Part shown: positions 1,407 to 64,000 of the stretch, piece by piece | Layout: each line of letters opens with the position of its first letter | Position numbering within the stretch: position 1 is the stretch's first letter | DNA from: an uncultured cyanobacterium | GTDB lineage: Bacteria; Cyanobacteriota; Cyanobacteriia; Phormidesmidales; Phormidesmidaceae | DNA: 64,000 nt | Reading direction: 5' to 3' | Assembly (NCBI GenBank): GCA_963793265.1 | Contig: CAWBZI010000005.1 | Location: 32,001-96,000 of the forward strand | The notes under the pieces: generated by a model | Database searches by the model: none | Told to the model about the DNA's origin: nothing | What the model saw: the letters and a program-made list of their open reading frames with translations, nothing else | Program-made: the position numbers and the translations under genes

Positions 1407-1649
1407 GTGATGGTCGTTACGGTTATTAAGATTATTTGGGCGATCGCAGCAGTCGGCGTCTGTGTTTTAGTTCTATTACACAGCCCAAAGGGCGATGGCT
1501 TAGGCGCTTTGGGCGGTCAGGCACAGCTCTTTACCAGTACCAAAAGCGCTGAAGAAACGCTAAATCGGGCGACCTGGCTGCTGCTAATTGTGTTTATGGC
1601 GCTGACAATCGTTTTGAGCGGCGGCTGGCTAGAGACGGCGGCCGGTTAA
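1407..1649 (+). CDS. secG: preprotein translocase subunit SecG
   Basis: 80 aa, two TM segments, LHSPKGDGLG...LF...AE.TLNR.TW; follows gpmI as is usual in cyanobacteria. Confidence 0.95.
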   Translation: MMVVTVIKIIWAIAAVGVCVLVLLHSPKGDGLGALGGQAQLFTSTKSAEETLNRATWLLLIVFMALTIVLSGGWLETAAG

Positions 1650-1655
1650 AGACGG

Positions 1656-2549
1656 CTAAACGTCTGTCACCTGAATAATTTTGATTGGCTGAGAGCCTTT
1701 GATGGGATTCATCGAAGGCTTTCCTGCTTCAGCAAGGGCCTGATAGGCTTTGTCTACAATGATTTGTTCGCGGTTGGTGGGATGGTTGCGATCGCTCAGT
1801 GCCCCCCCGACGTTTACATCCACGGCCACTACCGACTCATCCGGCAGCTTCAAAGGATTATCAACCAGAGCACTTCTGAGGGTTTCGCCGTACTGGCGGA
1901 GCCCTGTTTTGTCCATACCCGTAAGCACACACATAAACTGCGCGCCGTTTTCGTCCTGGCTATCGCAATACAGCCAGGTGTCGAGCGTAACGCTGCGGCG
2001 GATGACTGAGGAGATCGCGACATCGAGCTGAGCATTCTGCCGTTCAGTGGTGACCACTTCGCCAATCGGCGTTTGCCTGCGGGCATCAACAATTAATAAA
2101 CCAATCGCGTCAAACTGCGGATTGCCCGGCTGTAGCTTCATCTGCTTGATCAAAGCGGCAAGCGTTTGCGGCAGCACGCGGGCATCGAGCATTCCCGTAT
2201 TTGCGTCGGTAAGATTTAGCGCGCGCAGTAGATTTTCATGACTTTGACGCAGCCTTTCGGCATTGCTCACTTCGCTGCTCAGGCGGCGTTCGCGATCGCC
2301 AATTTCACCTTCTAGCTCAGTAGCCGCTCGTTTGGCCTTAGAGGCCCGCCAGCCACGCTTGATGACCGTTGGCGTCAGCACCAGCAGTCCAATCAGCACG
2401 CCAATCGCTAGCGTAGAGAGGAGGACAAGCGCCAGGGAGCCCTCAAGCTGTCCGAAGAGGAAGTTGATCGGAACCGGGGTGCTGTTTAGCAGGGCAAAGG
2501 CGATCGCCAAAAAGGCAATGACAATCGCAGCAATAATCAAAAACGGCAT
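1656..2549 (-). CDS. LapA/DUF1049-like membrane anchor fused to a degenerate GGDEF-like domain
   Basis: N-terminal two TM segments (FALLN..PV.INFLFG...SLALVLL), then a coiled coil, then a TDANTGMLD...VNVGGA...DKAYQAL GGDEF-like scaffold with no GGDEF motif. Confidence 0.6.
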   Translation of the reverse strand: MPFLIIAAIVIAFLAIAFALLNSTPVPINFLFGQLEGSLALVLLSTLAIGVLIGLLVLTPTVIKRGWRASKAKRAATELEGEIGDRERRLSSEVSNAERLRQSHENLLRALNLTDANTGMLDARVLPQTLAALIKQMKLQPGNPQFDAIGLLIVDARRQTPIGEVVTTERQNAQLDVAISSVIRRSVTLDTWLYCDSQDENGAQFMCVLTGMDKTGLRQYGETLRSALVDNPLKLPDESVVAVDVNVGGALSDRNHPTNREQIIVDKAYQALAEAGKPSMNPIKGSQPIKIIQVTDV

Positions 2550-2610
2550 ATTAGCGGTCGTTAGATATACGCAAAGACATCTATAGATTAGCGTCTAAAG
2601 AGATTAGCGC

Positions 2611-7482: not shown

Positions 7483-10255
7483 ATGACGCGCCTACCCCTG
7501 ACGCCCGAACAAGTCCGACTTCAGGAACACTCTGAGCAACAGGCAAACTGGAAAAAATGGGGCCCCTACCTCAGTGAAAGGCAGTGGGGCACCGTTCGCG
7601 AAGACTACAGCCCCGAAGGGAATGCCTGGGACTACTTTCCGCATGAGCACGCCCGGTCTAAAACGTATCGGTGGGGCGAGGATGGCATTTTAGGCATTTG
7701 TGACGATCGGCAGCTCCTTTGCTTTGCGCTTTCGACTGTGGAATGGCAAAGATCCGATACTTAAAGAACGCTTCTTTGGCCTGACTGGGAATGAGGGCAA
7801 CCACGGTGAAGACGTTAAGGAATATTATTTTTATCTCGACAGCACCCCGACGCATTCGTATATGAAGGCGCTGTATAAGTATCCGCAGAGCGAGTATCCG
7901 TATGAGCAGCTATTAGAAGAGAGTCGGCAGCGCGATCGCAAAGCGCCTGAGTTTGAGCTGATGGATACGGGCATTTTTGAGGGCGATCGCTACTTTGACG
8001 TGCAGGTGGAGTATGCCAAAGCCCACGCCGAAGACACGCTGATACTTATTACGGTGACCAATCGCGGGCCAGAGCAGGCCGATTTGCATCTGCTGCCGAC
8101 GCTGTGGTTTCGCAACACCTGGACATGGGACTCACCGAGCCTGAAGCCTAACCTAAAGGCAAGCCTGACGAATGGAGAAGTGTCGGTTGTTGAAAGCCAT
8201 CACCCTGAGCTAGGACAGTCTTGGTTTTATTGCCAAACGCCTAAGGGACACCAAAACAAGCCGAAGGAATCAACAGTATCGACTAACGGTCAGTGGGTTG
8301 AGCTAGGCAATAGCGGCCAGCAAAATGCAGCAGGGCTGATATTTACTGACAATGAAACGAACAAAGAGCTGTTGTTTAACGTTAAAAATGATTCTCCTTA
8401 TGTAAAAGATGCTTTTCATCGCTATGTGATTGAAGGAGAACAGTCTGCGATTAATCCGCAGCAGACGGGCACAAAGTCGGCGGTACACTATCAGCTCACG
8501 CTAGCGCCCGGCGAAACGCAACAGATTAAGCTGCGTCTAGCTGACGATTCGAGCCTTAGCGATCCGCTCGGTGAGCGCTTTGATGAGACTTTTTGCACTC
8601 GCAAAGAAGAAGCCGACAAGTTTTATCATCAGCTCGCGCCTTTTGTTCATGATGAAGACTTGAGCAACGTGCAGCGGCAGGCGTTTGCTGGCATGATGTG
8701 GGGCAAACAATACTATCTGTACGATGTAAGCACTTGGCTGAAAGGCGATCCGAACACGATTAATCCGCCGACTGAGCGCAAGCGAGGCCGCAATAAGCAC
8801 TGGCATCATCTCGACAGTCAAGACATTCTCTCGATGCCTGATACGTGGGAGTATCCGTGGTTTGCCGCCTGGGATACGGCCTTTCACTGTTTGCCGCTGG
8901 CGCTGATAGATGCTGAGTTTGCTAAGCAGCAGCTCGATGTGATGACGCGCGAGTGGTATATGCACCCCAACGGGCAGCTTCCGGCGTATGAATGGGCCTT
9001 TGGGGATGTGAATCCGCCCGTGCACGCCTGGGCGACCTGGCGGGTGTATAAGATTGAGCAGAAAATGACGGGGAAGGGCGATCGCCTATTTTTAGAGAGA
9101 CTGTTTCAAAAGCTGTTGCTGAACTTTACGTGGTGGGTGAATCGGAAAGACACCGAAGGCAACAATGTTTTTGAAGGGGGCTTTTTGGGCCTGGATAATA
9201 TTGGGGTATTCGATCGCTCTAAGCCGTTGCCAACCGGCGGACGATTGGAGCAGGCCGATGGGACAAGCTGGATGGCGATGTACTGTTTGGATATGCTGGC
9301 GATCGCGCTAGAACTTGCCCTAGAAAACCCCGTGTACGAAGACATGGCCACCAAGTTCTTCGAGCACTTTATCTACATTGCAGAAGCGATGAACTCCACC
9401 GGGGAGAATGCCACACAGCTCTGGGATGAAGAAGACGGCTTCTTCTATGACGTGCTGCACCTGCCGGATAAAACGCGCTTTCCGATCAAGATTCGTTCGC
9501 TGGTGGGCCTGATGCCGCTGTATGCAACAACAACTTTAGAGCCCGAGCTGATGGACAGGCTGCCTGGCTTTAAGGAGCGCTTGGAGTGGTTTGAGGCGAA
9601 TCGGCCTAAGCTGGCGCGTAATGTCACCACGATAGATATTAAAGACAGTGACGGCGGCGTTCAAAAGCGACGAATGCTTTCGGTGGTAAAGCCCGATAAG
9701 CTGCGGCGGATTTTGGCGAAGATGCTGAAGCCACATGAGTTTTTAGCGCCGACTGGCATCCGGGCGCTATCGCGTTTTCATATGGACAATCCTTACACCT
9801 TTGATGTAAATGGCAAGGTGTATCGGGTGGACTATGAACCAGCAGAGTCTAGCCTGTGGTTGTTTGGCGGTAATTCTAACTGGCGCGGCCCGGTGTGGTT
9901 TCCCACGAACTATCTGTTGATTGAGGCTTTGCAGCGCTATCATCACTTTTTTGGCGATGACTTTAAAATTGAGTGTCCATATGGCTCAGGGAATGAGATG
10001 AATTTGTGGGGGGTAGCTACAAAGCTAGAGCAGCGAATGATCGGGACTTTTTTACGGGATGAGAATGGCGATCGCCCGGTGTACGGAAACAACAGAACGT
10101 TTCAAGAAGATCCGCACTGGCGAGACTATATTCTCTTTTATGAGTACTTCAACGGAGATACGGGTGAAGGGCTAGGAGCTAGTCATCAGACCGGGTGGAC
10201 AGGGCTAGTAGCCAAGCTGATTCATCAGTGCTGTGAGTATGGCGATGGGGCGTGA
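7483..10255 (+). pseudogene. MGH1-like/GH63 glucosidase, +1 frameshift near 7735 (pseudogene or sequencing error)
   Basis: ORF 7483-7764 ([25 protein letters not shown]) continues in ORF 7700-10255 ([40 protein letters not shown]); removing one base at TCG[A]CTG restores FALSLWNGKDP. Confidence 0.88.
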
Positions 10256-19589: not shown

Positions 19590-22301
19590 ATGGCTGCTCT
19601 TGAAACGAACCTGGAAAATCGAGCCGATAACTACGGCATTCCTGAGCGGCTAGCCAAACATACCGTGCGCTATGCCGACTACCGCGAGGTCAGCCGCGAC
19701 GATATGACGCCCATGATGCGTCACTACGCGGAGGTGAAAGATCAGCACCCCTACGCCCTATTGATGTACAGAGTAGGCGACTTCTACGAAACCTTTTTTC
19801 AAGACGCTATTACCATTGCCCGCGAGCTAGAGCTAGTACTCACCAGCAAAGATTCGGGCAAAGCCATTGGCCGCGTACCACTTTCGGGCATTCCGCACCA
19901 TGCCCTCGAACGCTACTGCACTCAGCTCGTAGAAAAAGGCTACGCGGTTGCCATTTGCGATCAGGTAGAAGATCCGGCGCAGGCTGTGGGCCTGGTAAAA
20001 AGAGAAGTCACTCGCATTATCACGCCCGGTACCGTAATTGAAGAGGGAATGCTGAGCGCGCGTCACAACAACTTTTTGGCCGCTGTTGTAATTGCAGGCG
20101 ATCACTGGGGCTTAGCCCACGCCGATGTCTCTACAGGAGAGTTTTTTACCACGCAATCTACCGATTTAGATGAGCTAGGCCAAGAGCTTATGCGGCTTCA
20201 GCCTGCCGAGGTGTTAGTGCCCACAAACGTACCAGATTTGGGTGCACTGCTTAGACCTGGAGAGAAGTCTGAACGCCTACCCGACTGCTTGCCGCCTCAG
20301 TTTTGCTATACGTTTCGGGGGCAGGGGCCGTTTACAAAAGTGGAGGCCCAGCAGCGGCTAAAAGAGAGTTTTCGGGTGCGATCGCTCGAAGGCTTCGGCT
20401 GTGCCCGTCTGGCTTTAGCGACCCGCGCAGCAGGCGGTTTGTTGGAATATTTAGAAGACACCCAAAAAGAGACGATTGCACCGCTGCAAAATCTCTCTAC
20501 CTATTCAATCACCGAATTTTTGGTAATCGATCACCAAACCCGGCGCAATCTCGAAATTACCCAGACCTGTCGCGATGGTGCTTATCATGGCTCTTTACTA
20601 TGGGCGCTCGATAAAACCGTTACCGCTATGGGCGGACGGGCCTTACGACGGTGGCTATTGCAGCCATTGCTGAGTATAAAGGGCATCGCCGCCCGGCAAG
20701 ATACTGTTGAAGAGCTGGTGACTAACGGTAACTTAAGACAGCAGCTACAACAGTTGCTCAGACAGATCTACGACCTAGAGAGACTTGCCGGTAGAGCCGG
20801 ATCAGGAACGGCTAACGGTCGCGATTTGGTGGCAATGGCAGACTCTTTTGAGAAGCTGCCTGATTTAGCGGCGCTGATGCACCATGCCACATCGCCCTAT
20901 TTGGTGAAGCTGCAATTTGTGCCACCTGAGCTAGAAGAAATGGGTGGCGTGTTGCGATCGCACCTCGTTGAAACCCCACCTTTGTACCTGACTGAAGGCA
21001 ACCTGATTCGTGACGGGGTAAACACGAAGCTAGATGAGCTGCGATCGCAAGTAACTGCCGACCAGCAGTGGATTGCAAACTTGGAGACGACAGAGCGCGA
21101 TCGCACCGGCATTTCCAACCTCAAGGTTGGCTACACCAAAGCCTTCGGCTACTACATCAGCATCTCCCGCAGCAAATCAGCCCAGGCCCCCAGCGACTAC
21201 ACCCGCAAGCAAACCCTCACCAACGAAGAGCGCTACATCACCGATGAACTAAAGCAGTGCGAAGCCCGGCTCACTACCACTAACGCAGAGATTCAGGCGC
21301 TAGAATACAATCTGTTCATTAACCTGCGCGATCAGGTGAGTGAGCACGTTGCTCTGATCCGAGAGGTTGCCACAAAAGTTGCTGCCGCTGACGTGCTTGC
21401 AGCCCTGGCAGAAGTCGCGATCTATCAAGGCTACGCGCGGCCAGAGATGGTGCAAGGTCGGCCTGTGTTTATTGAAGACGGGCGTCATCCAGTGGTAGAG
21501 CAGTCGCTACCAGCAGGCTTTTTTGTGCCGAATGACACGGGGCTAGGCAGCGTGTCTGGTGAGCCTGAGGCTGAAAAGAACAGAATTACGCCCGATCTCA
21601 TTATTTTGACTGGGCCGAACGCCAGCGGAAAAAGTTGTTATTTGCGGCAAATAGGGCTAATTCAGTTGATGGCACAGGTAGGGAGCTTTGTGCCAGTGAG
21701 GTCTGCAACTTTGGGGGTGTGCGATCGCATCTTTACCCGAGTGGGCGCAGTTGATGATCTTGCCACAGGCCAATCGACCTTTATGGTAGAGATGAATGAG
21801 ACGGCGAATATTTTGAACCATGCGACGGTGCGATCGCTCGTTTTGCTCGATGAAATTGGCCGAGGCACCGCCACCTTTGACGGCCTTTCGATTGCCTGGG
21901 CCGTTGCCGAGCACTTAGCCACCGAAATTAGCGCGCGCACTATCTTTGCCACGCATTACCACGAGCTAAACGAGCTGGCCTCTATTCTCTCAAATGTAGA
22001 GAACTATCAGGTAATGGTAAAAGAGATGCCCGATCAGATTATCTTTTTGCATCAGGTGAGGCCGGGCGGGGCGGATAAGTCTTATGGGATTGAGGCGGGG
22101 CGCTTGGCCGGGCTGCCGCCTTCGGTGATTAGTAGAGCGCGGCAGGTGATGAGCCAAATTGAACAAAATAGTACGATTGCAGTGGGCTTAAGGGAGCCGC
22201 AGCGGGGTGGTGGAAAGCGGAAGAAGAAAGTGGCGGCTGAGGGTGAAAAGGGGGTGAAGGAGCCGGAGGAACAGCTTGATATGTTTGGGAACAGAACGTA
22301 G
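19590..22301 (+). CDS. mutS: DNA mismatch repair protein MutS
   Basis: [50 protein letters not shown]. Confidence 0.98.
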
Positions 22302-33316: not shown

Positions 33317-34504
33317 ATGCTCGATTTGACCAAGCTGGCCCGGCAAATGAAAGGTATCAGCGATCACCTCAGCAAAGAGGCAGATGCTGCTCGTCGTCGC
33401 GTTGAGATTGTTGGAGGGCTGATGAATCGGGCGATCGCTCGGCAGGATGTCATGGTCAGTCAGCTAGAGGAGTATCGCGATCACCTCCTATTTGCCGCCG
33501 CCGAACCCATCGAACCACTCGACACTAAAATCGCACTCGACACCGCCCCTGTTGCCCACTCAGTCATCTCCTCCGACGGCTCCCAAATCTCTCCTAGTCA
33601 CCACGAAATCGCCTACTGCTATCTGCTCAACATCAGCCGCATAGTTATTCACTACGGCCAAAGCCGCCACCCCCTCCTCGACAGCCTTCCCGAAGTCATC
33701 TACCGCCCCGAAGACCTCTACGCCTCGCGCAAATGGGGCATTCGCACCGAAGAGTGGATGAGCTACAAGCGCACTGCCGCTGAAGCCATCATGCTCAGCA
33801 ACTTAGGCAAAGAGGCCGCCAGCACGCAAGACTCAGACGTACCGATTTTAGCCATGACCGATGGCCCTTTGATCTATTGGTTTTTAGAGCAGATCCCAGT
33901 CAAAGCGCGCGACGAAATACTGCTGCCTATACTCGAAGCATGGGAGCAAATGCGCCAGGCCCGCGTGCCAGTAATAGGATACATTAGCGCCTCTCGCAGC
34001 GGTGAAGCCCTAAACTTTCTGCGCTTGCAGGCTTGCCCTTTTGATACGCCAAACTGCATGTCAAACTGCGAGCACCAGCGCAACGAAACGCCCTGCAATT
34101 CCTTTGCACCGCTGCGAGATGTCACGCTCTGGGCAACTGCTTTGAACCCTGGGGAGCGGGGGCCGCTATGGAAAAGTCCGGCAGATATTTTGAGCTGCTA
34201 TGGCGAACATACGGTGTACTTTTGCTATGTGCATGTCGGTGCTGAGATCGCGCGGATTGAGCTGCCCGAGTGGGTAGTAGAAGATAGTGAGCTGCTGAAT
34301 ACGGCGCTGAGTTTGATGCTAGCGCAGGTGCAGAAAGGGTTTGGCTATCCGGTGGCGCTAGCAGAAGCGCACAATCAGGCTGTGGTGAGAGGGGGCGATC
34401 GCACTCAATTTTTTGCTCTGTTAGAGCAGCAGATGATCCGTGCTGGACTCAAGAATGTCGGCACTTCATTTAAGGAAGCTCGCAAGCGAGGTAGCATTGC
34501 GTAG
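33317..34504 (+). CDS. NurA-domain nuclease
   Basis: SDGSQI, MTDGPL, GYP..LAEAH..AV NurA motifs. Confidence 0.88.
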   Translation: MLDLTKLARQMKGISDHLSKEADAARRRVEIVGGLMNRAIARQDVMVSQLEEYRDHLLFAAAEPIEPLDTKIALDTAPVAHSVISSDGSQISPSHHEIAYCYLLNISRIVIHYGQSRHPLLDSLPEVIYRPEDLYASRKWGIRTEEWMSYKRTAAEAIMLSNLGKEAASTQDSDVPILAMTDGPLIYWFLEQIPVKARDEILLPILEAWEQMRQARVPVIGYISASRSGEALNFLRLQACPFDTPNCMSNCEHQRNETPCNSFAPLRDVTLWATALNPGERGPLWKSPADILSCYGEHTVYFCYVHVGAEIARIELPEWVVEDSELLNTALSLMLAQVQKGFGYPVALAEAHNQAVVRGGDRTQFFALLEQQMIRAGLKNVGTSFKEARKRGSIA

Positions 34505-41605: not shown

Positions 41606-42205
41606 ATGACGGTTGCCAAAAACAAACCCATGACCCTGGAGGAGTATCTGAGCTACGACGATGGCACTGATACCCGCTACGAGTTGATAGACGGGATACT
41701 GGTAGAGATGAGTGCTGAGAGCGATATCAACATAGTCATTGCAACGTTCTTGATTGTTATGCTCGCGCAAGCAGCACCCTATTACTGCATCAGAAAAGGC
41801 ACAGAGATTGTAGTTGAGGGAAGCCGGGCGAATACACGAATTCCTGATTTGCTTGTGTTGAGTGAAGAAGGCGCAGATAGGCTTGCTGGAAAAAGGCGAT
41901 CGCTCATCACCCTCGACATGCCCGCCCCTCGCTTAGTCGTAGAAGTCGTCTCTAGCAGTGATACCGACAAGCAGTCGAGAGAAAGGGACTACACGAGCAA
42001 GCGCCAAGAATATGCTCAGCGAGATATCTCAGAATATTGGATTGTCGATCCGATTGCGGATGTCATTGTGGTGCTCAATCTCATGGAAGACAGCTACCAA
42101 GCACAAGAATTTACAGGCGATCAGTCGCTAGTTTCAGCCGAGTTTCCTAACTTGCAGCTCAGTGCAGCGCAGGTATTACAAGCAGGCAGCCGTCGCGAAT
42201 CATAA
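41606..42205 (+). CDS. Uma2 family endonuclease
   Basis: TLEEYL, YELIDG.L..M, PDL.V, LVVEVVS, DY..K...Y....I.EYWIVDP. Confidence 0.93.
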   Translation: MTVAKNKPMTLEEYLSYDDGTDTRYELIDGILVEMSAESDINIVIATFLIVMLAQAAPYYCIRKGTEIVVEGSRANTRIPDLLVLSEEGADRLAGKRRSLITLDMPAPRLVVEVVSSSDTDKQSRERDYTSKRQEYAQRDISEYWIVDPIADVIVVLNLMEDSYQAQEFTGDQSLVSAEFPNLQLSAAQVLQAGSRRES

Positions 42206-52758: not shown

Positions 52759-52770
52759 TTATATCTGCTT

Positions 52771-53223
52771 CTATCCGCCCACCAATGCAACCAGTCTTAA
52801 AAAGGTCAGCCGACTTTCCGCCTGAAGGGGCACCGTAGCGTCCAGATCTTCCTGCTGAACATCGTCTAAAAACACATAGTAGAGCCCGTCTATAAAGCCC
52901 AAAATAGCCACATCTACAGCGGCTTTCACGTCCACAGGCTGTACAGAATCGGATGGCTCAAAGTTCTGCTGACCCAGCGACACCTTGCCCTGAGCCAAAC
53001 CGCGATCAATATCATCTCTACTCAATATCTTTTGCAGCCGCCGCTCAATCTGACGTTCTTCAAACGCCGCTACCTCTGAGTGCACCACACAAACAATTAA
53101 ATCTCTGAGGGTGAAAGGCTTACCGCCCTCACCCACCGAAGGCGGCAGCGGCACCGACCAGTCTGGAAACAGCGGACGGCGGCGACCTAATACCTTGCCT
53201 TCAACCGTAATCACACTCGCCAT
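52771..53223 (-). CDS. ubiquitin-like (beta-grasp) protein with helical insertion and C-terminal GG
   Basis: TLRDLI helix; VFLDDVQQEDLDATVPLQAESRLTFLRLVALVGG*, resembling a MoaD/ThiS/ubiquitin C-terminus. Confidence 0.65.
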   Translation of the reverse strand: MASVITVEGKVLGRRRPLFPDWSVPLPPSVGEGGKPFTLRDLIVCVVHSEVAAFEERQIERRLQKILSRDDIDRGLAQGKVSLGQQNFEPSDSVQPVDVKAAVDVAILGFIDGLYYVFLDDVQQEDLDATVPLQAESRLTFLRLVALVGG

Positions 53224-53283
53224 GACCCACCACATTCAAGTAGTTCATGCGAACTATATCACAGACAACAATATCTCGTCGAA

Positions 53284-54426
53284 TTAGGCCGGAATCGCCG
53301 GATTCAGTCCCAGCGCTTCCATCACCCGCTTCGTATCGAAATACTGCTCCATCAGGTGCTTAATGCACTCCACCTTAATCGGCTCATGCAGCCGCACCTG
53401 CTCAAACGCCTGCTCGATTGCCTCCACCGTCGAGAGCGTATCCAAATCCACCGACAAAATTGGCACTTCCAAATCATTCGCCCGGTTCAAAATGTCCTCT
53501 CTCGGAGACAGCCGACCCGTCAGCACCAGGCACTGCGTCGAGCTTTCTAACGCCGCCATTTGAATATCGAATCTGTCGCCCCCCGTCACCACCGCCATAT
53601 TGTGCGCCTGGTTGAAATATCGCAGCGCCGAATTCGCATTCATCGCCCCAATCGAAATTTCTTCCACCATAATCTGGTCTAAACGCTCAGTCTTATTCAG
53701 CATCTCAGCATTGAGCTGATGCACCAGCGCCTCCACACTCACGCTGCGCATAATCGCCGTACGCGGCAAAATGCCAAACACCTTAATATCCCGATGCTCT
53801 AAAAACTGCTTCACCGGATTCAGCGCGTTCTCCATCAGCGACTCGGGCACATCATTAATCACCACGCCCAGCAGCTTATCGCCCAGCTTTTGCTTCGCCG
53901 CCAGCAGCTTATCCACCACCAGCGCCGACTGATAGCGCGTCACCAAAATCACCGCCGCCCCGCTCATCTGCGCCATATCCGGCAGCGATAGCCCAAACAG
54001 CGATCCCTCGTCCAAATCGCCCGGCCCCTCAATTAGCAAGACATCTTCGCCCTCACCTTTGAGCGCATCTTCTAGGGCAGATGGTGAAACCAGCTTTTCC
54101 TGAGTGAGCTGCTGAGCGATCGTGTCCTCATCTAAAGCAAACAGCGTCGGGCGAACTCTGCTTTTATCCAGCTTGAGCGTACTGCTAATGAATCGAACGT
54201 CTTCATCTATAGCATCATCACTTTCGCTGGGGCAGGTGCCGATTGGCTTGGCGTAGGCGATGTCTAGACCGTGCGATCGCAACTGCAAAGCCAACCCCAA
54301 AACGGTAGCCGACTTCCCGCTATACGACTCTACAGAGCCAATCAGCAAACGCTGAGACGAACGATCAGATCTGGATGACTGGTGGCTCACGCCGATAAAC
54401 TCCTTACACGGGGGCTGCTTAAGCAA
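53284..54426 (-). CDS. phosphotransacetylase-family protein (BioD-like N-terminal domain + DRTGG), no catalytic PTA domain
   Basis: YSGKS, KPIG, LIEG.G, IGAM, VTGGDR.DI, LVLTG. Confidence 0.88.
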   Translation of the reverse strand: MLKQPPCKEFIGVSHQSSRSDRSSQRLLIGSVESYSGKSATVLGLALQLRSHGLDIAYAKPIGTCPSESDDAIDEDVRFISSTLKLDKSRVRPTLFALDEDTIAQQLTQEKLVSPSALEDALKGEGEDVLLIEGPGDLDEGSLFGLSLPDMAQMSGAAVILVTRYQSALVVDKLLAAKQKLGDKLLGVVINDVPESLMENALNPVKQFLEHRDIKVFGILPRTAIMRSVSVEALVHQLNAEMLNKTERLDQIMVEEISIGAMNANSALRYFNQAHNMAVVTGGDRFDIQMAALESSTQCLVLTGRLSPREDILNRANDLEVPILSVDLDTLSTVEAIEQAFEQVRLHEPIKVECIKHLMEQYFDTKRVMEALGLNPAIPA

Positions 54427-55081: not shown

Positions 55082-56461
55082 ATGTCAGATTTCGCTGAAA
55101 CGCTCGCGCCCGAGTTAGACCCAGAAGTGGACTTGGCCTTTAACGCTGAGCTATTTAAGGGATATGCCGGAAGGCGGTTAAAAGCAGCGATCGCCCTCGC
55201 TATTTTATGGGTCATCACCCTCATACTCCACCTCGTTCCCTGGGGTCAAACCCTGGTGTTCATCATCGCCGGGCTCATGAGCATCCACGCCCTGCGCGTC
55301 ATGCTTGCCAAGCCGTTGACTGCGCCTGAAGCGTTGCCTTCAGTCTCAGAAAGTTCAGCGATCGCCCCTACCCTTCCCTACGTCTCGCTCATCGTCGCCG
55401 CCAAAAACGAAGAGCACGTCATCGGCAAACTCGTCGAGTCTTTACTACACATCGACTATCCCACCTCACGCTACGACCTGTGGATTATCGACGACTACAG
55501 CACTGACAAGACGCCCCAAATCCTCGACAACTTAGCCCAAAGCTACCCTCGCCTCAACGTCATCCACAGAGGCCCCGATGCAACGGGTGGTAAGTCTGGT
55601 GCACTCAACTTGGTATGGCCGCAGACTAGAGGCGACATTTTGGCCGTGTTCGATGCTGACGCGCGCGTGAGTCATGATCTGCTGCGTCATGTAGTGCCTA
55701 TGTTTGACGCTAAGCAAGGCGGTGGCAAGACTGGGGCCGTGCAGGTACGGAAGGCGATCGCGAACGCTACTACAAACTTTTGGACGCGCGGGCAAAAAGC
55801 TGAAATGGCCCTCGATAGCTACATGCAGGAGCGGCGGATTGCCATTGGCGGCATTGGTGAGCTGCGCGGCAACGGCCAGTTTGTGCGGCGAAGTGCGATC
55901 GCTCAGTGCGGCGGCTGGAACGAAGAAACCATCACCGACGATCTCGATCTCACCATTCAGCTTCACATTCATCAGTGGAACATCGGCCTGCTCTTTACCC
56001 CACCCGTCGAAGAAGAAGGCGTGACCACCGCTAAGGCACTCTGGCATCAGCGCAACCGTTGGGCAGAAGGCGGCTTTCAGCGCTATTTGGACTACTGGCG
56101 ACAGCTTGCGAAAAACAAGCTGGGCTGGCAAAAGTCAATTGATATGGCAGGCTTTTGGATTATTCAATACATGATGCCTGCGGTCGTCGTGCCCGATTTT
56201 GCGATCGCCCTCATCCGCCATCAGCTCCCTGTCTTTGGCCCCATCACCCTCTTAGGCATCGTTCTTTCTCTATGGGGCATGTTCAAAACCCTCCGCCGCG
56301 CCGAAAAAACCGCCCCCTGGATCGCCTGCATCCAAACCATTCGCGGCACAGTTTACATGCTGCATTGGGTGCTAGTCATTGCCACAATGGCTATGCGGAT
56401 TTCGATACGACCCAAGAAACTAAAGTGGGTGAAAACGGTTCACGGTTCGACGACAGCATAG
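55082..56461 (+). CDS. mgdA: GT2 beta-monoglucosyldiacylglycerol synthase
   Basis: AKNEE, DD.S.D, GGKSGALN, FDAD, ELRGNG, TDDLD, QR.RW; divergent from ebsA. Confidence 0.85.
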   Translation: MSDFAETLAPELDPEVDLAFNAELFKGYAGRRLKAAIALAILWVITLILHLVPWGQTLVFIIAGLMSIHALRVMLAKPLTAPEALPSVSESSAIAPTLPYVSLIVAAKNEEHVIGKLVESLLHIDYPTSRYDLWIIDDYSTDKTPQILDNLAQSYPRLNVIHRGPDATGGKSGALNLVWPQTRGDILAVFDADARVSHDLLRHVVPMFDAKQGGGKTGAVQVRKAIANATTNFWTRGQKAEMALDSYMQERRIAIGGIGELRGNGQFVRRSAIAQCGGWNEETITDDLDLTIQLHIHQWNIGLLFTPPVEEEGVTTAKALWHQRNRWAEGGFQRYLDYWRQLAKNKLGWQKSIDMAGFWIIQYMMPAVVVPDFAIALIRHQLPVFGPITLLGIVLSLWGMFKTLRRAEKTAPWIACIQTIRGTVYMLHWVLVIATMAMRISIRPKKLKWVKTVHGSTTA

Positions 56462-57282: not shown

Positions 57283-57569
57283 ACTTTTCTACCCACTTAC
57301 AGCTAACCCTCACCGTAGTTGAAACAGGTAGCCCAAAACCTATAGCTTCGGCAGTATGTTTCCATGGTCTTCAAGTATCTATTCGTCCTCCGATCAAGTG
57401 GTGCATTGAAATCACCAACTTCGACTTCACCGTCATCAATGCATGTTAAGCAATACGAACTTTCTTTCGCGCTGCTTAGCGTTTTGCAAGGATTTTTCAT
57501 CTATTAAAGAGTTTTCGTTGGCTAAGGTAAAAGAACTCACGAAATACCTTTTTGGCACTCTTTAAGACA

Positions 57570-58103
57570 ATGAACATTTCAAAGCTTCCTTCGCCGCTGA
57601 CTCGCAGACAGTTCAACTGGGACACCTTAGTTTTGACGGTGGTAGCCTTTTGGCTGAGCGCTAGCGTACTGATGGACTTTTTTATGATGCCGATGATGTA
57701 CGAGTCCGGCATGATGAATGAGCCTAATTTTGCAACGGCTGGCTATAGCTTGTTTTGGATGTTCAACCGAGTAGAGCTACTGTGTGCGGGCGCAATTATG
57801 AGCGGTCTGCTGGCACTGCGCCAAAGACGGAGCCGGTTTGATGTACAGGTCAGCGGTTCTCAAAGTCGGTGGGCACTGATGCTGAGCGGATTGTTGATGG
57901 CGATCGCACTCCTCTACACCTACGTGCTCACCCCGCAAATGAGCGCACTGGGCATGAACCTCAGCATGGACTTCACTGCCCCTGCCCCCGAGGCCATGGG
58001 CTACATGCACGTTCTCTACTGGGGCCTAGAAGCCGTGAAGCTATTCGCCGCTGCCTGGCTCGTGAAGCTTTGCTACCGTGATGTGGCTGCAATGTTTGAG
58101 TAA
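57570..58103 (+). CDS. DUF4149-like membrane protein
   Basis: Four TMs; FNRVELLC, TPQMSALG, H..YW.LE..K. Confidence 0.7.
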   Translation: MNISKLPSPLTRRQFNWDTLVLTVVAFWLSASVLMDFFMMPMMYESGMMNEPNFATAGYSLFWMFNRVELLCAGAIMSGLLALRQRRSRFDVQVSGSQSRWALMLSGLLMAIALLYTYVLTPQMSALGMNLSMDFTAPAPEAMGYMHVLYWGLEAVKLFAAAWLVKLCYRDVAAMFE

Positions 58104-58174: not shown

Positions 58175-58457
58175 TTCTGGAATATCGCTATCGGGCCATA
58201 GCAGCCGCACGGCTAGCAGGCCAAATCCGATTGCGGCGATGCCTTTGACGACCTTTTCGGGGAGGAGAGCAGCGGTGCTTTCGCCTAAAAGGACGCTGAT
58301 TAGACGAGGCGAGTAGAAGGGCGCAGGCTGAGCCTAAGAAGACGGCTTTGGGGGAGGAGGTGGAGCCGCCGAGTGCGATCGCTGCCAACTGACTCTTATC
58401 ACCTAGCTCTGAGACAAAAACGGTCACAAAGCTGACCAGCAAAAGTTGAAAATCCAT
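58172..58457 (-). pseudogene. UPF0016/GDT1 half-transporter (Hmx2-like), +1 frameshift near 58304
   Basis: ELGDKSQ motif; removing one base at TCG[T]CTA gives ...ASLISVLLGESTAALLPEKVVKGIAAIGFGLLAVRLLWPDSDIPE*. Confidence 0.85.
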
Positions 58458-61722: not shown

Positions 61723-62388
61723 ATGGATAGTATTCAAATACAGGCTTCTAAGCTTTGGAACCTGTTGTTTTCGGACGAAACAGCCGCAACCTACCAAAAG
61801 ACGCTCAATCTAACAGGCACCATCCTTAAGGAAACTGCTCAGCTCGTTTGGCTAATTATTTGCTCAGCGTTTGTATTTGGAGCCTGGTTCGCAGATACGT
61901 CTGTTCAAGCAGGCAAAGGCATTCGCAATTGGTTGGATAGAAAGGTCGATCCTGATAGTGTGCCGACCGATCCAGAGGCGATCGCCGACAAAGGCAAAAG
62001 CCTACTCGATACAGGCCGAGTTGGGATGGCGAATCTGCTCAATCAAGCCCGCGAACAGCTTGGCATTGAGCCCCAAGAAATGCCTGCGATCGACCGCGCT
62101 GCGAAAGCAATTAAGCCAGATAAGCCGACTGAGCCCGCTAAGCTACCGACCTCTGCGGCTTCCACAAGTTCTTCTACCACCACTTCAACGGCTTCTACGC
62201 CGTCATCGACGCTCCCAACTAACAAACCGTTTGATAAAAGCGCTGATACGACTGTTGAACCTACCCCTGCGCCCAGCACTCAAACCGTAGGCAGCAGCGT
62301 TGGAGCAGGTAGCCCTAGCTCAGATGATAGTGATGTTGAGATCACAAGAGAAGACGTATACGACGAAAGTACTCAGTACGACGACTAA
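61723..62388 (+). CDS. hypothetical protein with one TM and Ser/Thr-rich tail
   Basis: Long ORF with ATG start, conserved-looking N-terminus, low-complexity C-terminus. Confidence 0.7.
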   Translation: MDSIQIQASKLWNLLFSDETAATYQKTLNLTGTILKETAQLVWLIICSAFVFGAWFADTSVQAGKGIRNWLDRKVDPDSVPTDPEAIADKGKSLLDTGRVGMANLLNQAREQLGIEPQEMPAIDRAAKAIKPDKPTEPAKLPTSAASTSSSTTTSTASTPSSTLPTNKPFDKSADTTVEPTPAPSTQTVGSSVGAGSPSSDDSDVEITREDVYDESTQYDD

Positions 62389-62407
62389 CGCTTGTAGCTC
62401 AACCTCT

Positions 62408-63964
62408 TTAGCTATTGCCACTACCGAGCAGGAACAGCCCGATCATCGTGACGCTGTTCCAAGTGCTATGGAGCAGGATAGAAGACAGGAGATTTTGCGA
62501 TCGCACATAAGCAAACCCCAAAATCGCACCCAACACCGTCAGCGGCAGCACCTCCGAAAAGCTCAGGTGCGCCGCTGAGAATATCAGGCTACTCAGACCA
62601 ATCGCGCCCCAAATCGGCATGTAGCGGGTCAGTGACGGCAGCAAAAAGCCTCTAAACAAGATTTCTTCAAATACGGGAGCGGCCACCGCTGCGGTAAAGA
62701 AGAACATACCGAGCGCCACCGGATCGCGCTCCTCTAGCACAAGCTGCAAAATTGGATTGTTACCACCTTGGCCCTGCCAAATCTGCTGATTAAGTAGCGA
62801 GATCCCCAACATTAGCGGCAACGCCACTAAGTAGCTACCAAAGCCCCACAGCGGCCATTTGCTTGCCAGCTTCACCCGAAACCAGTCTTTAGGCAAAGGC
62901 AAGTAGGGCTTGATAGACCAGTACAGTACGCCTATCGTACTTGCCGCCATCAGTAGATAAAACACCAGCGAATACAGCGCTCTGCCTCGGCTAGTGAGTC
63001 CTAAAATTAGGCCAGAATGAACAAATGCCACTTCGGGCACCACCGTTAGGGCCCCACGCGCCGATAGCCCTAGCTGTATCACCAGCGGCAGCGCGATTTG
63101 GCCGACGAACAAGAAACCGCCGACCACGACCTGCCAAACTATCTCCCAGTCCCAGGGCACTTCCCACTGGCCTTCAGGCACGGCTAACAATGACTCTTTT
63201 CCTTTAAGCACTCGCTGACCAACTAAGGCAATAATGCCTGCTGAGCCCAGTAGCCCGCCGAATGAAGGCAATAGCCCTACTGCACTGAGCTGAATAAGCG
63301 TACGTTCGGCCAGCGATCGCTCCTCAGCCTCTAACTGCGCTAGCTTTTCGGTATCATCTTCTACTGTGTACAGACGTTTCAAGTCAACGTAGCGATACCA
63401 ACCTTTGAGCCGCTGCGTAATGGTATCTTCTGTTTGCGATCGCACAATCGGCGGTGACTGCCATAAATCAGTCAGAACGCCTGCCACTGCCGCAATATCG
63501 CTTTGTTTAGCACTCTGCCTATCCGCTAAGCGCTGCCAGGTTGTGATCGCCTCTTCCACCTTTCCCTGCTGCGCTCGCACTACGCCCAATCGCAAATCTA
63601 ACTGATCAATCAACTGCTGCTGCGATTGAGCTGTCGTCACAAGCTGCGGCTTGTCGTCAGGCGATGACTTGATCTCGTTTTGCAATCGTACTAAACCGGT
63701 TGCGGCATCTTTACGAACTTCCTGATACTGCTGAATCGCGGCGTCAAGAGCATCGCCGCCAAACACCGCATTGCGAAACTGCTGCACCTCATTTTCGGGT
63801 AGACCGCTGCCGTCCCACTCGCTCGATTGCACCAGTAGATCAGTTTGGTAGAGCTGAAGCCGGTTGCCGACTTGCGGCTCGCCTAAGCTGCTTATGAGCG
63901 ATGCGCCCATCTCCAGCGCCACAATGAAGGTGAGAATAGAGAGGACAATACGCTTGGGGGTCAT
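62408..63964 (-). CDS. CPBP (CAAX protease-like, Abi) intramembrane metalloprotease
   Basis: APVFEEILFRG, F...H, LH..WN motifs; N-terminal TPR-like region. Confidence 0.92.
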   Translation of the reverse strand: MTPKRIVLSILTFIVALEMGASLISSLGEPQVGNRLQLYQTDLLVQSSEWDGSGLPENEVQQFRNAVFGGDALDAAIQQYQEVRKDAATGLVRLQNEIKSSPDDKPQLVTTAQSQQQLIDQLDLRLGVVRAQQGKVEEAITTWQRLADRQSAKQSDIAAVAGVLTDLWQSPPIVRSQTEDTITQRLKGWYRYVDLKRLYTVEDDTEKLAQLEAEERSLAERTLIQLSAVGLLPSFGGLLGSAGIIALVGQRVLKGKESLLAVPEGQWEVPWDWEIVWQVVVGGFLFVGQIALPLVIQLGLSARGALTVVPEVAFVHSGLILGLTSRGRALYSLVFYLLMAASTIGVLYWSIKPYLPLPKDWFRVKLASKWPLWGFGSYLVALPLMLGISLLNQQIWQGQGGNNPILQLVLEERDPVALGMFFFTAAVAAPVFEEILFRGFLLPSLTRYMPIWGAIGLSSLIFSAAHLSFSEVLPLTVLGAILGFAYVRSQNLLSSILLHSTWNSVTMIGLFLLGSGNS

Positions 63965-64000
63965 GGAATCGGGGATCTGGGTGAACGGGGGCGGCGATCG

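What the first reader, a model, noticed from the sequence alone, without database searches (positions are those of the whole stretch)
1440..64000. G/C skew flips polarity at HIP1 sites (G/T-rich 5', C/A-rich 3')
Seen: many GCGATCGC sites sit on a compositional switch, regardless of gene strand. Hand counts over 50 nt before vs after: site 35890 (+ gene) 15G/6C vs 8G/24C; site 57900 (+ gene) 18G/9C vs 10G/19C; site 58375 (- gene) 23G/9C vs 8G/15C. The same appears by eye near 9300, 21097, 33431-34394, 37455, 41896, 55188 and 56202, and the window ends in a G-rich run leading into a HIP1. These examples were picked by eye, so selection bias is possible. Established: HIP1 is methylated and its function is unresolved. 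Inference: this is the footprint of a strand-asymmetric process anchored at HIP1. The polarity matches 5'->3' excision/resection starting at HIP1, which would expose the opposite strand to C->T and A->G change. It is opposite to a replication-origin signature. Exceptions exist: the C-rich tract 53290-54030 has no obvious exact HIP1 at its start.
Basis: partly seen in the sequence, partly recalled or inferred. Interest (0 to 1): 0.75.

Follow-up and report, generated by a model that had tools for sequence, protein, structure and literature searches.

The report
G-to-C strand bias flips at HIP1
In this cyanobacterium the DNA just before almost every copy of the abundant palindrome GCGATCGC is G-rich and the DNA just after it is C-rich, mostly at silent codon positions, which looks like the footprint of a one-directional DNA repair or recombination process that starts at this long-unexplained word.

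Summary
In the window 83 of 98 HIP1 sites show the G-to-C shift, against 46% of random positions. Genome-wide (6,886 sites) GC skew is +0.32 in the 10 nt before HIP1 and -0.32 in the 10 nt after. HIP1 is the only one of 142 palindromes to show this in its own right.

The flip has the same polarity in genes of both strands and is strongest at fourfold sites (G 0.47, C 0.11), with a decay length of about 75 nt. It survives synonymous-codon shuffling controls.

At orthologous places in congeners the skew is present only in the genome that carries HIP1, and it is stronger at conserved sites.

The preference on the strand 5' of the site is G > A~T > C, with a gain in purines.

The sign is positive in all 16 HIP1-rich genomes sampled. 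The amplitude ranges from 9.1 to 0.4 and is nearly nil in the HIP1-densest genome.

No searched paper describes this. This scan noted the same flip twice before, on other windows of this genome.

Best reading: a polar excision tract anchored at HIP1. The mechanism is inferred, not shown.

The parts
1440..64000 (.). All 98 HIP1 (GCGATCGC) sites of the window with their flanks. Each inter-HIP1 segment runs from C-rich (just 3' of one site) to G-rich (just 5' of the next).
   Evidence: Coordinates. 83 of 98 show the G-to-C shift, mean +8.72 per 50 nt, against 46% of random positions.
35890..35897 (.). HIP1 site inside a + strand gene; hand-counted example
   Evidence: 15G/6C before, 8G/24C after
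57900..57907 (.). HIP1 site inside a + strand gene; hand-counted example
   Evidence: 18G/9C before, 10G/19C after
58375..58382 (.). HIP1 site; hand-counted example. By my gene calls it lies between ORFs 57552-58103 (+) and 58485-58850 (-).
   Evidence: 23G/9C before, 8G/15C after; gene calls
9299..9306 (.). HIP1 site named by eye
   Evidence: 19G/8C before, 11G/15C after
21097..21104 (.). HIP1 site named by eye, inside mutS
   Evidence: 15G/12C before, 9G/17C after
33431..33438 (.). HIP1 site named by eye, inside the NurA gene; weak example
   Evidence: 19G/9C before, 15G/13C after
34395..34402 (.). HIP1 site named by eye; weak on the 3' side
   Evidence: 20G/11C before, 11G/11C after
37455..37462 (.). 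HIP1 site named by eye
   Evidence: 13G/8C before, 5G/21C after
41896..41903 (.). HIP1 site named by eye
   Evidence: 18G/5C before, 9G/20C after
55187..55194 (.). HIP1 site named by eye
   Evidence: 14G/9C before, 8G/19C after
56201..56208 (.). HIP1 site named by eye
   Evidence: 12G/11C before, 7G/23C after
63994..64000 (.). First seven bases of a HIP1 that spans the window end, preceded by a G-rich run
   Evidence: The window ends ...GGGGGCGGCGATCG and the contig continues with C
52901..54100 (.). Exception: a 1.2-kb C-rich tract (skew about -0.3) with no HIP1 between 51519 and 54273. It lies 5' of the HIP1 at 54273, where G-richness would be expected.
   Evidence: Skew in 100-nt steps. It covers two - strand ORFs, 52771-53235 and 53284-54426. 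Not explained.
19590..22301 (+). mutS (all five MutS domains). Context only: a candidate player in the proposed mechanism.
   Evidence: Pfam MutS_I to MutS_V, E 5e-41 to 9e-83
33317..34504 (+). Context only.
   Evidence: Pfam NurA, E 1.2e-44. The family is in 58 of 61 genomes of the class, whatever their skew.

Best explanation
Core claim. HIP1 anchors a polar, strand-specific DNA transaction, most simply a nick at the palindrome followed by an excision and resynthesis tract. The tract runs in one chemical direction, so it leaves the site rightwards on one strand and leftwards on the other. In each flank the two strands are therefore treated unequally. Over evolutionary time this gives a substitution bias of G > A~T > C on the strand that lies 5' of the site, and the mirror image on the other side. 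The bias fades with a length of about 75 nt and a weak tail to about 1 kb.

Favoured sub-mechanism (about 0.35 on its own). The tract belongs to mismatch correction, in the spirit of Elhai's methyl-directed model. If excision from a HIP1 nick runs only 5'->3', errors in one new strand per flank are corrected well and errors in the other are corrected poorly. The residual errors of the poorly corrected strand would then move C towards G through A and T. These errors would be G.T mispairs, giving A>G and C>T, and oxidised-guanine mispairs, giving C>A and T>G.

Shown: the footprint, its specificity for HIP1, its polarity, its base hierarchy, its dependence on HIP1 at orthologous places, and its dose and age dependence.

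Inferred: the nick, the direction of excision, the enzymes, and whether the bias is mutational or a conversion bias.
For: 1. It acts at DNA level, not at coding level. The polarity is the same in 3,212 sites in + genes, 3,133 in - genes and 532 intergenic sites. Fourfold-site skew is +0.61/-0.60 and +0.57/-0.61, while codon positions 1 and 2 shift only within about 30 nt. Shuffling synonymous codons within genes cuts the signal from 9.11 to 2.94-2.99.

2. It is specific to HIP1. Among 142 palindromes HIP1 gives z = 90.8. Of 12 one-mismatch variant classes more than 200 nt from any HIP1, only GTGATCGC/GCGATCAC clearly keeps the skew (n = 491; +0.144/-0.144). GCAATCGC shows a weak trace (+0.043/-0.076).

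3. It tracks HIP1 through evolution. Sites conserved between G000 and two congeners give 10-12 in both genomes (n = 267 and 286). Where one genome has HIP1 and the other has 3 or more mismatches, the bearer gives 6.3 or 9.5 and the non-bearer 0.33 +/- 0.70 or 1.51 +/- 0.65 (n = 107 and 104). Values for 1 and 2 mismatches are graded. Older (conserved) sites are stronger.

4. It applies to nearly all sites. 84% of sites show the shift against 47% of random positions, and the whole distribution is shifted.

5. It depends on dose. Isolated pairs of HIP1 (n = 88) have stronger outer flanks (fourfold skew 0.544 against 0.416 at 21-50 nt). A neighbouring HIP1 60-150 nt away on the same side halves the flank skew (0.216 against 0.46-0.50).

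6. The base hierarchy is consistent between site classes. Odds ratios at twofold sites match those at fourfold sites: G/A x1.65-1.85 and C/T x0.34-0.41 within 10 nt, with A/T about 1.

7. The parts needed are present in G000: MutS in the window, endonuclease-type MutL, RecJ and ExoVII. MutH and Vsr were not found, so any nickase would be of an unknown family, as Elhai postulated (PMC4390886, passages read).
Against: - No nick, tract or enzyme has been observed. The polarity alone does not fix the direction of excision.
- Intergenic positions respond 3-4 times less than fourfold sites at the same distance (0.054 against 0.234 at 51-100 nt from genic HIP1). Yet intergenic HIP1 sites act almost normally on nearby fourfold sites. 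A purely mutational process would be expected to act at least as strongly on intergenic DNA.
- The amplitude is not a general property of HIP1. It is 7-9 in three lineages, 1-4 in most others, and 0.44 +/- 0.41 in the genome with the densest HIP1 (251 per 100 kb).
- None of the candidate genes tested separates strong from weak genomes: MutL, RecJ, ExoVII, ExoI, NurA, Vsr, Uma2 copy number and MutL endonuclease motifs.
- All five MutL proteins examined carry endonuclease-type motifs. A separate HIP1 nickase is therefore not required for mismatch repair in these organisms.
- The misinsertion spectrum I invoke is recalled from work on other bacteria and was not measured here.
Confidence: 0.55

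Rival explanations
1. Biased gene conversion linked to recombination or natural transformation. HIP1 sets the end or the strand of heteroduplex tracts, formed between chromosome copies or with incoming DNA. Mismatch correction then favours one strand per flank. Because G.G and G.T mismatches are recognised well and C.C hardly at all (recalled), alleles with G on the retained strand win. This is a fixation bias rather than a mutation bias.
For: - The bias behaves like a base-specific preference that is the same at twofold and fourfold sites. Beyond 30 nt the log odds for G over A and for T over C are similar (about 0.46 and 0.33-0.46 at 31-60 nt). That is expected if both depend on the same G.T versus A.C pair.
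- The weaker response of intergenic DNA and the variation between lineages fit a process that needs homologous partners and varies with recombination rate.
- Methylated HIP1 raises transformation in Synechococcus PCC 7002, and its authors suggest a Chi-like role (abstract of 10.1101/2024.09.10.611283).
- HIP1 abundance correlates with secretion and competence genes (abstract of PMC13756078).
Against: - There is no direct evidence for heteroduplex tracts at HIP1.
- Within 10 nt the two log odds differ (0.5-0.6 against 0.9-1.1).
- If correction removes the invading strand, as is usual in break repair, the predicted polarity is the reverse of what is seen (my inference).
- Allele-frequency data could not be obtained.
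Confidence: 0.2
2. 5'->3' resection from HIP1 exposes the opposite strand as single-stranded DNA, where cytosine and adenine deaminate, giving C>T and A>G.
For: - The polarity fits.
- At twofold sites C is replaced by T (odds x0.34-0.51) and A by G (x1.7-1.85) on the strand 5' of HIP1.
- All-position TA skew has the predicted sign (+0.04/-0.06).
- A 5'->3' nuclease gene (NurA) and RecJ are present.
Against: - At fourfold sites T does not rise and A does not fall, while purines rise from 0.466 to 0.654.
- G+C at fourfold sites does not fall (0.565 to 0.58-0.60).
- Deamination is a transition-only, GC-lowering pressure.
- NurA is present in 58 of 61 genomes of the class, whatever their skew or HIP1 content.
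Confidence: 0.1
3. Selection for function. G-rich 5' flanks and C-rich 3' flanks are part of an extended HIP1 element, for example for binding of a strand-specific protein or filament, for DNA uptake, or for a Chi-like 3' tail. Selection maintains them.
For: - A base-preference pattern is what selection would give.
- There is a weak extended motif, with G at 0.33-0.41 at positions -1 to -3.
- HIP1 sites themselves are strongly conserved: 267 of 464 and 286 of 439 aligned sites at about 75% flank identity.
Against: - The gradient reaches beyond 200 nt and touches about a quarter of the genome's silent sites.
- It is weakest where sequence is freest to adapt, in intergenic DNA.
- It is almost absent in several HIP1-rich genomes, including the densest.
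- There is no flank motif beyond composition and no mirror complementarity.
- T is not favoured, as a GT-preferring recombinase would require (the preference itself is recalled).
Confidence: 0.08
4. Reverse causality. HIP1 arises or persists preferentially where a G-to-C switch already exists.
For: - The octamer is itself G-then-C skewed (GCGA|TCGC).
- Random positions with a large positive difference are common (sd 11 per 100 nt).
Against: - Orthologous places without HIP1 carry no skew (0.33 +/- 0.70 and 1.51 +/- 0.65).
- Conserved, older sites are stronger than lineage-specific ones. Pre-existing chance switches that regress to the mean would show the opposite.
- Paired sites are stronger than single ones.
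- The smooth distance decay at silent sites is not what sampling of chance fluctuations gives.
Confidence: 0.05
5. By-product of codon or amino-acid context, of longer repeats or hairpins, or of assembly error.
For: - HIP1 has frame preferences (2,973 / 2,108 / 1,269 in the three frames).
- There is a period-3 ripple in the profile.
- About a third of the all-position signal (2.9 of 9.1) remains after synonymous shuffling, so it sits in amino-acid sequence and non-coding DNA.
Against: - The polarity is the same in both gene orientations and in intergenic DNA.
- Two thirds of the signal is position-specific synonymous choice.
- The same genes lack the skew in genomes that lack the HIP1.
- There is no excess mirror complementarity (z between -2.4 and +0.7 beyond 5 nt) and no flank motif.
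- The flip is seen in independent assemblies: G004, G009, G018, G033 and eight named metagenome bins.
Confidence: 0.02

Closest known systems
HIP1 and Elhai's model of G-meC-directed mismatch repair (Life 2015, PMC4390886; passages read)
   Same: It concerns the same element. It postulates a nick at methylated HIP1 that directs excision of one strand, and so treats HIP1 as a strand-discrimination site for MutS/MutL in organisms without MutH. G000 has MutS, MutL and RecJ and lacks MutH.
   Different: The model was built to explain how HIP1 copies accumulate. It neither predicts nor reports a flank skew: the word 'skew' occurs 0 times in the paper. The footprint adds a fixed polarity per flank, which the model needs an extra assumption (one-directional excision) to produce. 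The postulated nickase is still unknown.
Dam/MutH methyl-directed mismatch repair of E. coli (recalled; summarised in PMC5101192, passages read)
   Same: A short methylated palindrome containing GATC serves as the entry point for strand-specific excision over hundreds of nucleotides.
   Different: MutH was not found in G000 and is reported absent from all cyanobacteria. E. coli excision is bidirectional, and no GATC-centred skew flip is known to me. In G000 other GATC-containing octamer palindromes show none.
Vsr very-short-patch repair at methylated cytosines (recalled)
   Same: A nick 5' of a deaminated 5-methylcytosine is followed by 5'->3' resynthesis on the same strand, so a polar tract is anchored at a methylation site. 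G000 does show an excess of the deamination product GTGATCGC.
   Different: The Vsr family was found in only 1 of 61 genomes of the class and not in G000. Patches are a few nucleotides long, not about 75 nt with a kilobase tail. The GTGATCGC excess is absent in congeners that have the full skew.
Chi sites with RecBCD/AddAB, and the Chi-like role proposed for HIP1 (abstract of 10.1101/2024.09.10.611283)
   Same: An over-represented octamer that controls which strand survives resection. The G-rich strand 5' of HIP1 is the strand that would form the 3' tail after a break-processing enzyme met the site (my inference).
   Different: Chi is asymmetric and oriented with replication, whereas HIP1 is a palindrome. 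RecC was not found in G000. No local compositional gradient around Chi is known to me.
Replication-associated GC skew at origins and termini (recalled)
   Same: G over C on one strand, switching sign at a point. The strand 5' of HIP1 looks like a leading strand.
   Different: There are 6,888 switch points instead of two. The polarity is that of a terminus. The amplitude at silent sites (+/-0.6) is far above typical replication skew. The length scale is about 75 nt. G000 shows no clean large-scale replichore pattern.
GC-biased gene conversion at motif-defined recombination hotspots of eukaryotes (recalled)
   Same: A compositional footprint centred on a short motif, produced by biased repair of heteroduplex DNA and decaying with distance.
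   Different: That bias favours G+C over A+T on both strands. Here G+C hardly changes (0.565 to 0.60 at fourfold sites), and the bias is G against C with opposite sign on the two sides.

Membership tests
HIP1 (highly iterated palindrome 1) | Octamer GCGATCGC far above chance frequency | tested here: met
   98 in the window against 1.9 expected. 6,888 in 5.68 Mb.
HIP1 (highly iterated palindrome 1) | Positional conservation above the neutral expectation (reported by Xu et al. 2018, PMC5861425, abstract seen) | tested here: met
   267 of 464 and 286 of 439 aligned sites are conserved between G000 and two congeners at about 75% flank identity. The alignment may favour conserved sites.
Methyl-directed mismatch repair (Dam/MutH type) | MutH-family nicking endonuclease | tested here: not met
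   PF02976: 0 matches in G000; the E. coli control rings.
Methyl-directed mismatch repair (Dam/MutH type) | MutS and MutL present | tested here: met
   MutS at window 19590-22301. MutL_C in G000.
Methyl-directed mismatch repair (Dam/MutH type) | Methylation of the site, and hemimethylation used for strand choice | not testable with these tools
   No methylome data. The excess of GTGATCGC in G000 (766 against 210-348 for other transition variants) is only an indirect hint of 5-methylcytosine at position 2.
Vsr very-short-patch repair | Vsr-family endonuclease | tested here: not met
   PF03852 found in 1 of 61 genomes of the class, not in G000; controls ring.
Chi / RecBCD hotspot | RecBCD-type enzyme (RecC subunit) | tested here: not met
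   PF04257: 0 matches in G000. AddAB was not searched.
Chi / RecBCD hotspot | Orientation-dependent, asymmetric motif | tested here: not met
   HIP1 is a perfect palindrome. The flanks, not the motif, carry the polarity.
Replication origin or terminus skew switch | One or few switch points per replicon, with chromosome-scale arms | tested here: not met
   6,888 switches with a decay length of about 74 nt. There is no clean large-scale pattern.
GC-biased gene conversion hotspot | Local rise of G+C on both strands | tested here: not met
   Fourfold-site G+C rises only from 0.565 to 0.58-0.61. The change is G against C with opposite sign on the two sides.
Extended palindrome / hairpin element | Complementarity between the two flanks | tested here: not met
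   Mirror complementarity is at or below the compositional expectation: z = -11.6 at 1-5 nt and |z| <= 2.4 beyond.

The most novel reading that the evidence does not exclude
HIP1 is the loading or nicking site of a so far unidentified, one-directional strand-excision system of cyanobacteria, which would be a functional analogue of GATC/MutH or of Chi. Its activity has rewritten the silent positions, and measurably the amino-acid content, of about a quarter of this genome. On this reading the 20-fold differences in footprint amplitude between HIP1-rich lineages mark where the system is active. Comparative genomics on amplitude could then identify the enzyme.
Probability: 0.4. Interest if true: 0.9.

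Novelty: new variant of a known kind. Interest (0 to 1): 0.8.

Why it matters
HIP1 has been known for about thirty years, and the papers I read say its function is unresolved or only starting to be elucidated. The flip is a large, quantitative phenotype written in every strong-skew genome. It has a polarity, a length scale (about 75 nt) and a base hierarchy (G > A~T > C), it depends on dose and age, and it tracks HIP1 at orthologous places.

This turns the question of what HIP1 does into testable ones:
- Is there a strand-specific nick or tract at HIP1?
- Which mutants erase the flank-dependent mutation spectrum?
- Which genes co-vary with footprint amplitude across cyanobacteria?

It also matters in practice. 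Codon choice in this genome depends four-fold on position relative to the nearest HIP1 (G-ending against C-ending codons). Amino-acid usage shifts as well: Val, Met, Glu and Gly before the site, Thr, Asn, Ile and Pro after it. Codon-usage, selection and horizontal-transfer analyses that ignore HIP1 are therefore confounded.

The finding that amplitude is uncoupled from HIP1 density argues that HIP1 maintenance and the skew-making process are separable.

Tried and rejected
**Structure and motif**
- Hairpin or extended palindrome: no excess mirror complementarity.
- Hidden flank motif: the enriched 3-mers and 5-mers are simply G-rich, by about what composition predicts.
- ATCGCGAT as a second active palindrome: 160 of 298 copies overlap a HIP1 and the remaining 138 give 1.14 +/- 0.58.
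- Replichore test of replication-linked models: large-scale skew is irregular, so no replichores could be assigned.

**Candidate genes that might separate strong genomes (G000, G033, G018) from weak ones (G043, G035)**
- MutL_C 5 of 5, RecJ 5 of 5, ExoVII large subunit 5 of 5, ExoI 0 of 5.
- NurA in 58 of 61 genomes of the class and Vsr in 1 of 61.
- MutL endonuclease-type motifs are present in all five (motif definitions recalled).
- Uma2 nuclease copy number looked promising (49, 95 and 108 against 2 and 20) but failed on the wider set.

**Other correlates of amplitude**
- The 5-methylcytosine deamination footprint (GTGATCGC excess) is present in G000 but not in the strong-skew congeners G009 and G004.
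- The share of CGATCG sites that are full HIP1, G+C content and HIP1 density show no clear relation.

**Half-site test of which half drives which flank**
- In G000 the half-site variants occur at chance frequency and carry no skew.
- In G018 half sites give +1.95/-1.45 and core-only sites +1.31/-1.03, against +3.31/-3.84 for HIP1. The values are graded and nearly symmetric, so the test is uninformative.

**Polarised SNPs and substitution rate against distance from HIP1 (not possible)**
- Congeners are only 66-74% identical over the longer matches to the window stretch tested.
- The eight named relatives are at most 82% identical to each other.
- The metagenome scan found no MutS above 74% amino-acid identity.
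- The public runs that hold the window are kept as contigs of a near-identical population mixed with other organisms, and gave too few usable differences.

**Literature**
- Four full-text searches and term look-ups in the three main HIP1 papers found no mention of a flank skew.
- Supplements were not opened, and papers outside the held library were not searched.

Full report
**Setting.** The window is G000:C5:32001-96000, from a 5.68-Mb, 51% G+C genome in 7 contigs. Its MnmG protein is 88-93% identical to those of metagenome bins titled Phormidesmis, so the organism is a Phormidesmis-like cyanobacterium. GCGATCGC (HIP1) occurs 98 times in the window, against 1.9 expected, and 6,888 times in the genome.

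The three hand counts are exact. Taking every HIP1 in the window removes the selection-bias worry. 83 of 98 sites have more G-over-C before than after, with a mean difference of +8.72 per 50 nt. Of 5,000 random positions, 46% do, with mean -0.14. Genome-wide (6,886 sites) GC skew is +0.322 in the 10 nt 5' of the site and -0.324 in the 10 nt 3'. It falls to about +/-0.06 at 100 nt and +/-0.01-0.03 at 300 nt. TA skew has the same sign but is small. Among 142 octamer palindromes with 30 or more copies, HIP1 stands alone (z = 90.8). The runner-up ATCGCGAT is explained by overlap with HIP1; TCGCGCGA (78 copies) gives z = 3.8 and all others have |z| <= 3.2. Per site, 84% show the shift over 100 nt against 47% of random positions, and the whole distribution is displaced. 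This is therefore a property of nearly all sites and not of a subclass. All seven contigs show it, at 7.9-9.7.

**It is not coding context.** I made my own gene calls, a simple codon-statistics caller that gave 4,791 genes and 86% coding.
- The polarity is the same for 3,212 sites in + genes, 3,133 in - genes and 532 intergenic sites.
- The effect is greatest at fourfold-degenerate sites: +0.61/-0.60 and +0.57/-0.61 within 10 nt. There G rises from 0.27 to 0.47 and C falls from 0.29 to 0.11 on the 5' side, with the mirror image on the 3' side.
- Codon positions 1 and 2 shift only within about 30 nt.
- Shuffling synonymous codons within each gene keeps protein sequence and gene-level codon usage but lowers the signal from 9.11 to 2.94-2.99. 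About two thirds of the signal is therefore position-specific silent choice. The rest sits in amino-acid sequence and non-coding DNA.
- Protein composition is measurably bent: Val, Met, Glu and Gly are up to 1.3-fold commoner before a site, and Thr, Asn, Ile and Pro after it.
- At fourfold sites the decay fits one exponential of 74 nt, or two of 18 and 88 nt, plus a tail of 0.03-0.07 that lasts to nearly 1 kb. Each inter-HIP1 segment therefore runs from C-rich to G-rich.

**The skew follows HIP1 through evolution.** I aligned 300 kb from each of two congeners (G009, G004) to G000, at about 75% flank identity.
- Sites that are HIP1 in both genomes carry a strong flip in both: 10.2 and 12.1 (n = 267), and 11.8 and 10.2 (n = 286).
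- Where one genome has HIP1 and the other has 3 or more mismatches, the bearer has 6.3 (n = 107) or 9.5 (n = 104). The non-bearer has 0.33 +/- 0.70 or 1.51 +/- 0.65.
- One and two mismatches give intermediate values.

The same genes thus lack the flip when they lack the HIP1, and conserved (older) sites are stronger. This argues that HIP1 comes first and the skew builds up afterwards. Consistent with this, the only clearly skewed one-mismatch variant far from any HIP1 in G000 is GTGATCGC/GCGATCAC, the deamination product of a methylated cytosine (n = 491; +0.144/-0.144). The CGATCG core with other outer bases occurs at chance frequency and has no skew. Isolated HIP1 pairs have stronger outer flanks than single sites, and a nearby HIP1 on the same side cancels part of the flank skew. 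This is what superposed contributions of opposite sign would give.

**What the bias is.** On the strand lying 5' of HIP1, fourfold sites within 10 nt change as follows.

| Base | Genome | Within 10 nt |
|---|---|---|
| A | 0.191 | 0.193 |
| C | 0.286 | 0.112 |
| G | 0.275 | 0.461 |
| T | 0.247 | 0.234 |

Purines rise from 0.466 to 0.654 and G+C hardly changes. Twofold sites, where only transitions are silent, shift by the same odds as fourfold sites: G/A x1.65-1.85 and C/T x0.34-0.41. The pressure is therefore a hierarchy G > A~T > C that involves both transitions and transversions. A deamination pressure (C>T, A>G) would raise T, lower A, lower G+C and leave purine content unchanged. It cannot be the sole cause.

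**It is not universal.** I sampled 100 kb (300 kb for G009 and G004) from other genomes of the class. The difference statistic (3-52 nt) is shown below.

| Genome(s) | Relation to G000 | Difference |
|---|---|---|
| G000 | - | 9.1 |
| G009, G004 | congeners | 8.1, 7.6 |
| Eight Phormidesmis-titled bins | named relatives | 8.93 +/- 0.67 (n = 174) |
| G033, G018 | two other families | 8.3, 7.2 |
| G028, G021, G036, G020 | G021 is same family, other genus | 3.8, 3.5, 2.6, 2.3 |
| G052, G014, G061, G019, G035, G072 | other families | 1.0-1.8 |
| G043 | HIP1-densest genome (251 per 100 kb) | 0.44 +/- 0.41 |

The sign is positive in 16 of 16 HIP1-rich genomes, with z > 2 in 12 of them. One genome uses GGGATCCC instead (110 per 100 kb) and shows no flip (-1.5 +/- 0.93). 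Amplitude is thus uncoupled from HIP1 density.

No candidate I tested separates strong from weak genomes. These were MutL, RecJ, ExoVII, ExoI, NurA, Vsr, Uma2 copy number, MutL endonuclease-type motifs and the GTGATCGC excess. MutH and RecC were not found in G000.

**Mechanism (inferred).** A palindrome with mirror-image flanks implies a process that leaves the site in one chemical direction on each strand. This could be a nick followed by polar excision and resynthesis.

Two families of model give the observed polarity. In the first, the opposite strand is excised 5'->3', and the retained or poorly corrected strand accumulates the bias. In the second, the same strand is excised 3'->5', and the bias comes from errors in resynthesis.

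I favour a mismatch-repair version of the first, which extends Elhai's proposal that methylated HIP1 directs MutS/MutL repair (passages read). With one-directional excision, only one nascent strand per flank is corrected efficiently. The uncorrected strand's typical misinsertions (recalled from other bacteria) would drive C through A and T to G.

A close rival is conversion bias in heteroduplex DNA, from recombination between chromosome copies or from transformation. It fits the preference-like pattern, the weak intergenic response and the published effect of methylated HIP1 on transformation (abstract).

One fact fits neither model neatly. Intergenic positions respond 3-4 times less than fourfold sites at the same distance, although intergenic HIP1 sites act almost normally on neighbouring fourfold sites.

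I could not separate mutation from conversion. No close relatives or usable polymorphism were available.

**Novelty.** Searches for HIP1 with 'skew' and 'asymmetr', for the octamer with 'cyanobacteria', and for GC skew with mismatch repair and palindromes found no description of this flip. The same holds for term look-ups in Xu et al. 2018, Elhai 2015 and the 2026 GBE paper. Supplements were not opened, and subscription-only papers are outside the library. This scan recorded the same phenomenon twice before, on other windows of this same genome. My independent counts agree with those notes.

New in this report:
- the orthologous-place test;
- the twofold against fourfold comparison, which rules out a pure deamination signature;
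- the dose effect;
- the survey showing that amplitude varies by lineage and is separable from HIP1 abundance.

I rate it a new variant of a known kind, namely a motif-centred footprint of strand-biased repair. It is of high interest because it gives the first quantitative, testable handle on what happens at HIP1.

Noticed in passing
window 52901-54100: A 1.2-kb tract with top-strand GC skew of about -0.3 lies inside a 2.75-kb HIP1-free stretch (51519 to 54273) and covers two - strand ORFs. It is C-rich where the HIP1 at 54273 would predict G-richness, so HIP1 does not explain it.
   Followed up: partly
genome-wide (G000); Intergenic positions carry 3-4 times less HIP1-linked skew than fourfold sites at the same distance (0.054 against 0.234 at 51-100 nt). 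Intergenic HIP1 sites nevertheless act almost normally on fourfold sites of neighbouring genes (0.199). None of the models considered accounts for this cleanly.
   Followed up: partly
window 33317-34504 (+) and 34681-36474 (+): A NurA-domain nuclease gene is followed by a 597-aa ORF with no Pfam or NCBIfam match (best Pfam E = 0.34), where a HerA-type ATPase might be expected. NurA occurs in 58 of 61 genomes of the class, often in two copies.
   Followed up: partly
G000 whole genome against G009 and G004: G000 has a marked excess of GTGATCGC/GCGATCAC (766, against 210-348 for the other transition variants of HIP1), the product expected from deamination of a 5-methylcytosine at position 2. Its congeners show no such excess (8 and 16, against means of 16 and 17).
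   Followed up: partly
G015 (loci L009-L013): One genome of the class has almost no GCGATCGC (1 per 100 kb) but 110 GGGATCCC per 100 kb, an alternative iterated palindrome. It shows no flank skew (-1.5 +/- 0.93).
   Followed up: partly
G000, G033, G018 and others; one copy at window 41606-42205 (+): The Uma2 (DUF820) putative endonuclease family is massively expanded in many of these genomes: 49 matches in G000, 95 in G033 and 108 in G018, against 2 in G043. It does not track the skew on the wider set.
   Followed up: yes
HIP1 flanks genome-wide, positions +/-1 to +/-3: The bases immediately flanking HIP1 are less often complementary to each other than composition predicts (0.242 observed against 0.270 expected over 5 nt, z = -11.6). 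It is as if extension of the palindrome were avoided. This may be a coding-frame effect.
   Followed up: no
window 35556 (inside the HIP1 at 35554-35561): Contigs of two public metagenome runs from different studies (X3, X2) read A instead of G here. A GCAATCGC allele of this HIP1 therefore exists in natural populations.
   Followed up: no
G000:C4 about 330-334 kb, and loci L218-L221: All five cyanobacterial MutL proteins examined carry EQHIAHERVLYE. This has the spacing of the endonuclease motif recalled as DQHA(X)2E(X)4E, but with E for D and I for A. They also carry ACR and CPHGRP motifs.
   Followed up: partly
G000, all contigs: Large-scale GC skew is irregular, with 100-kb blocks between -0.10 and +0.10 and no clean two-arm pattern. 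Replication arms could not be assigned from composition.
   Followed up: no
G018 (loci L024-L028) and G072 (L124-L128): In some genomes CGATCG with other outer bases is itself abundant, for example 56 ACGATCGC/GCGATCGT per 100 kb in G018. In G018 these sites carry a weaker flip of the same sign (+1.95/-1.45 for half sites).
   Followed up: partly
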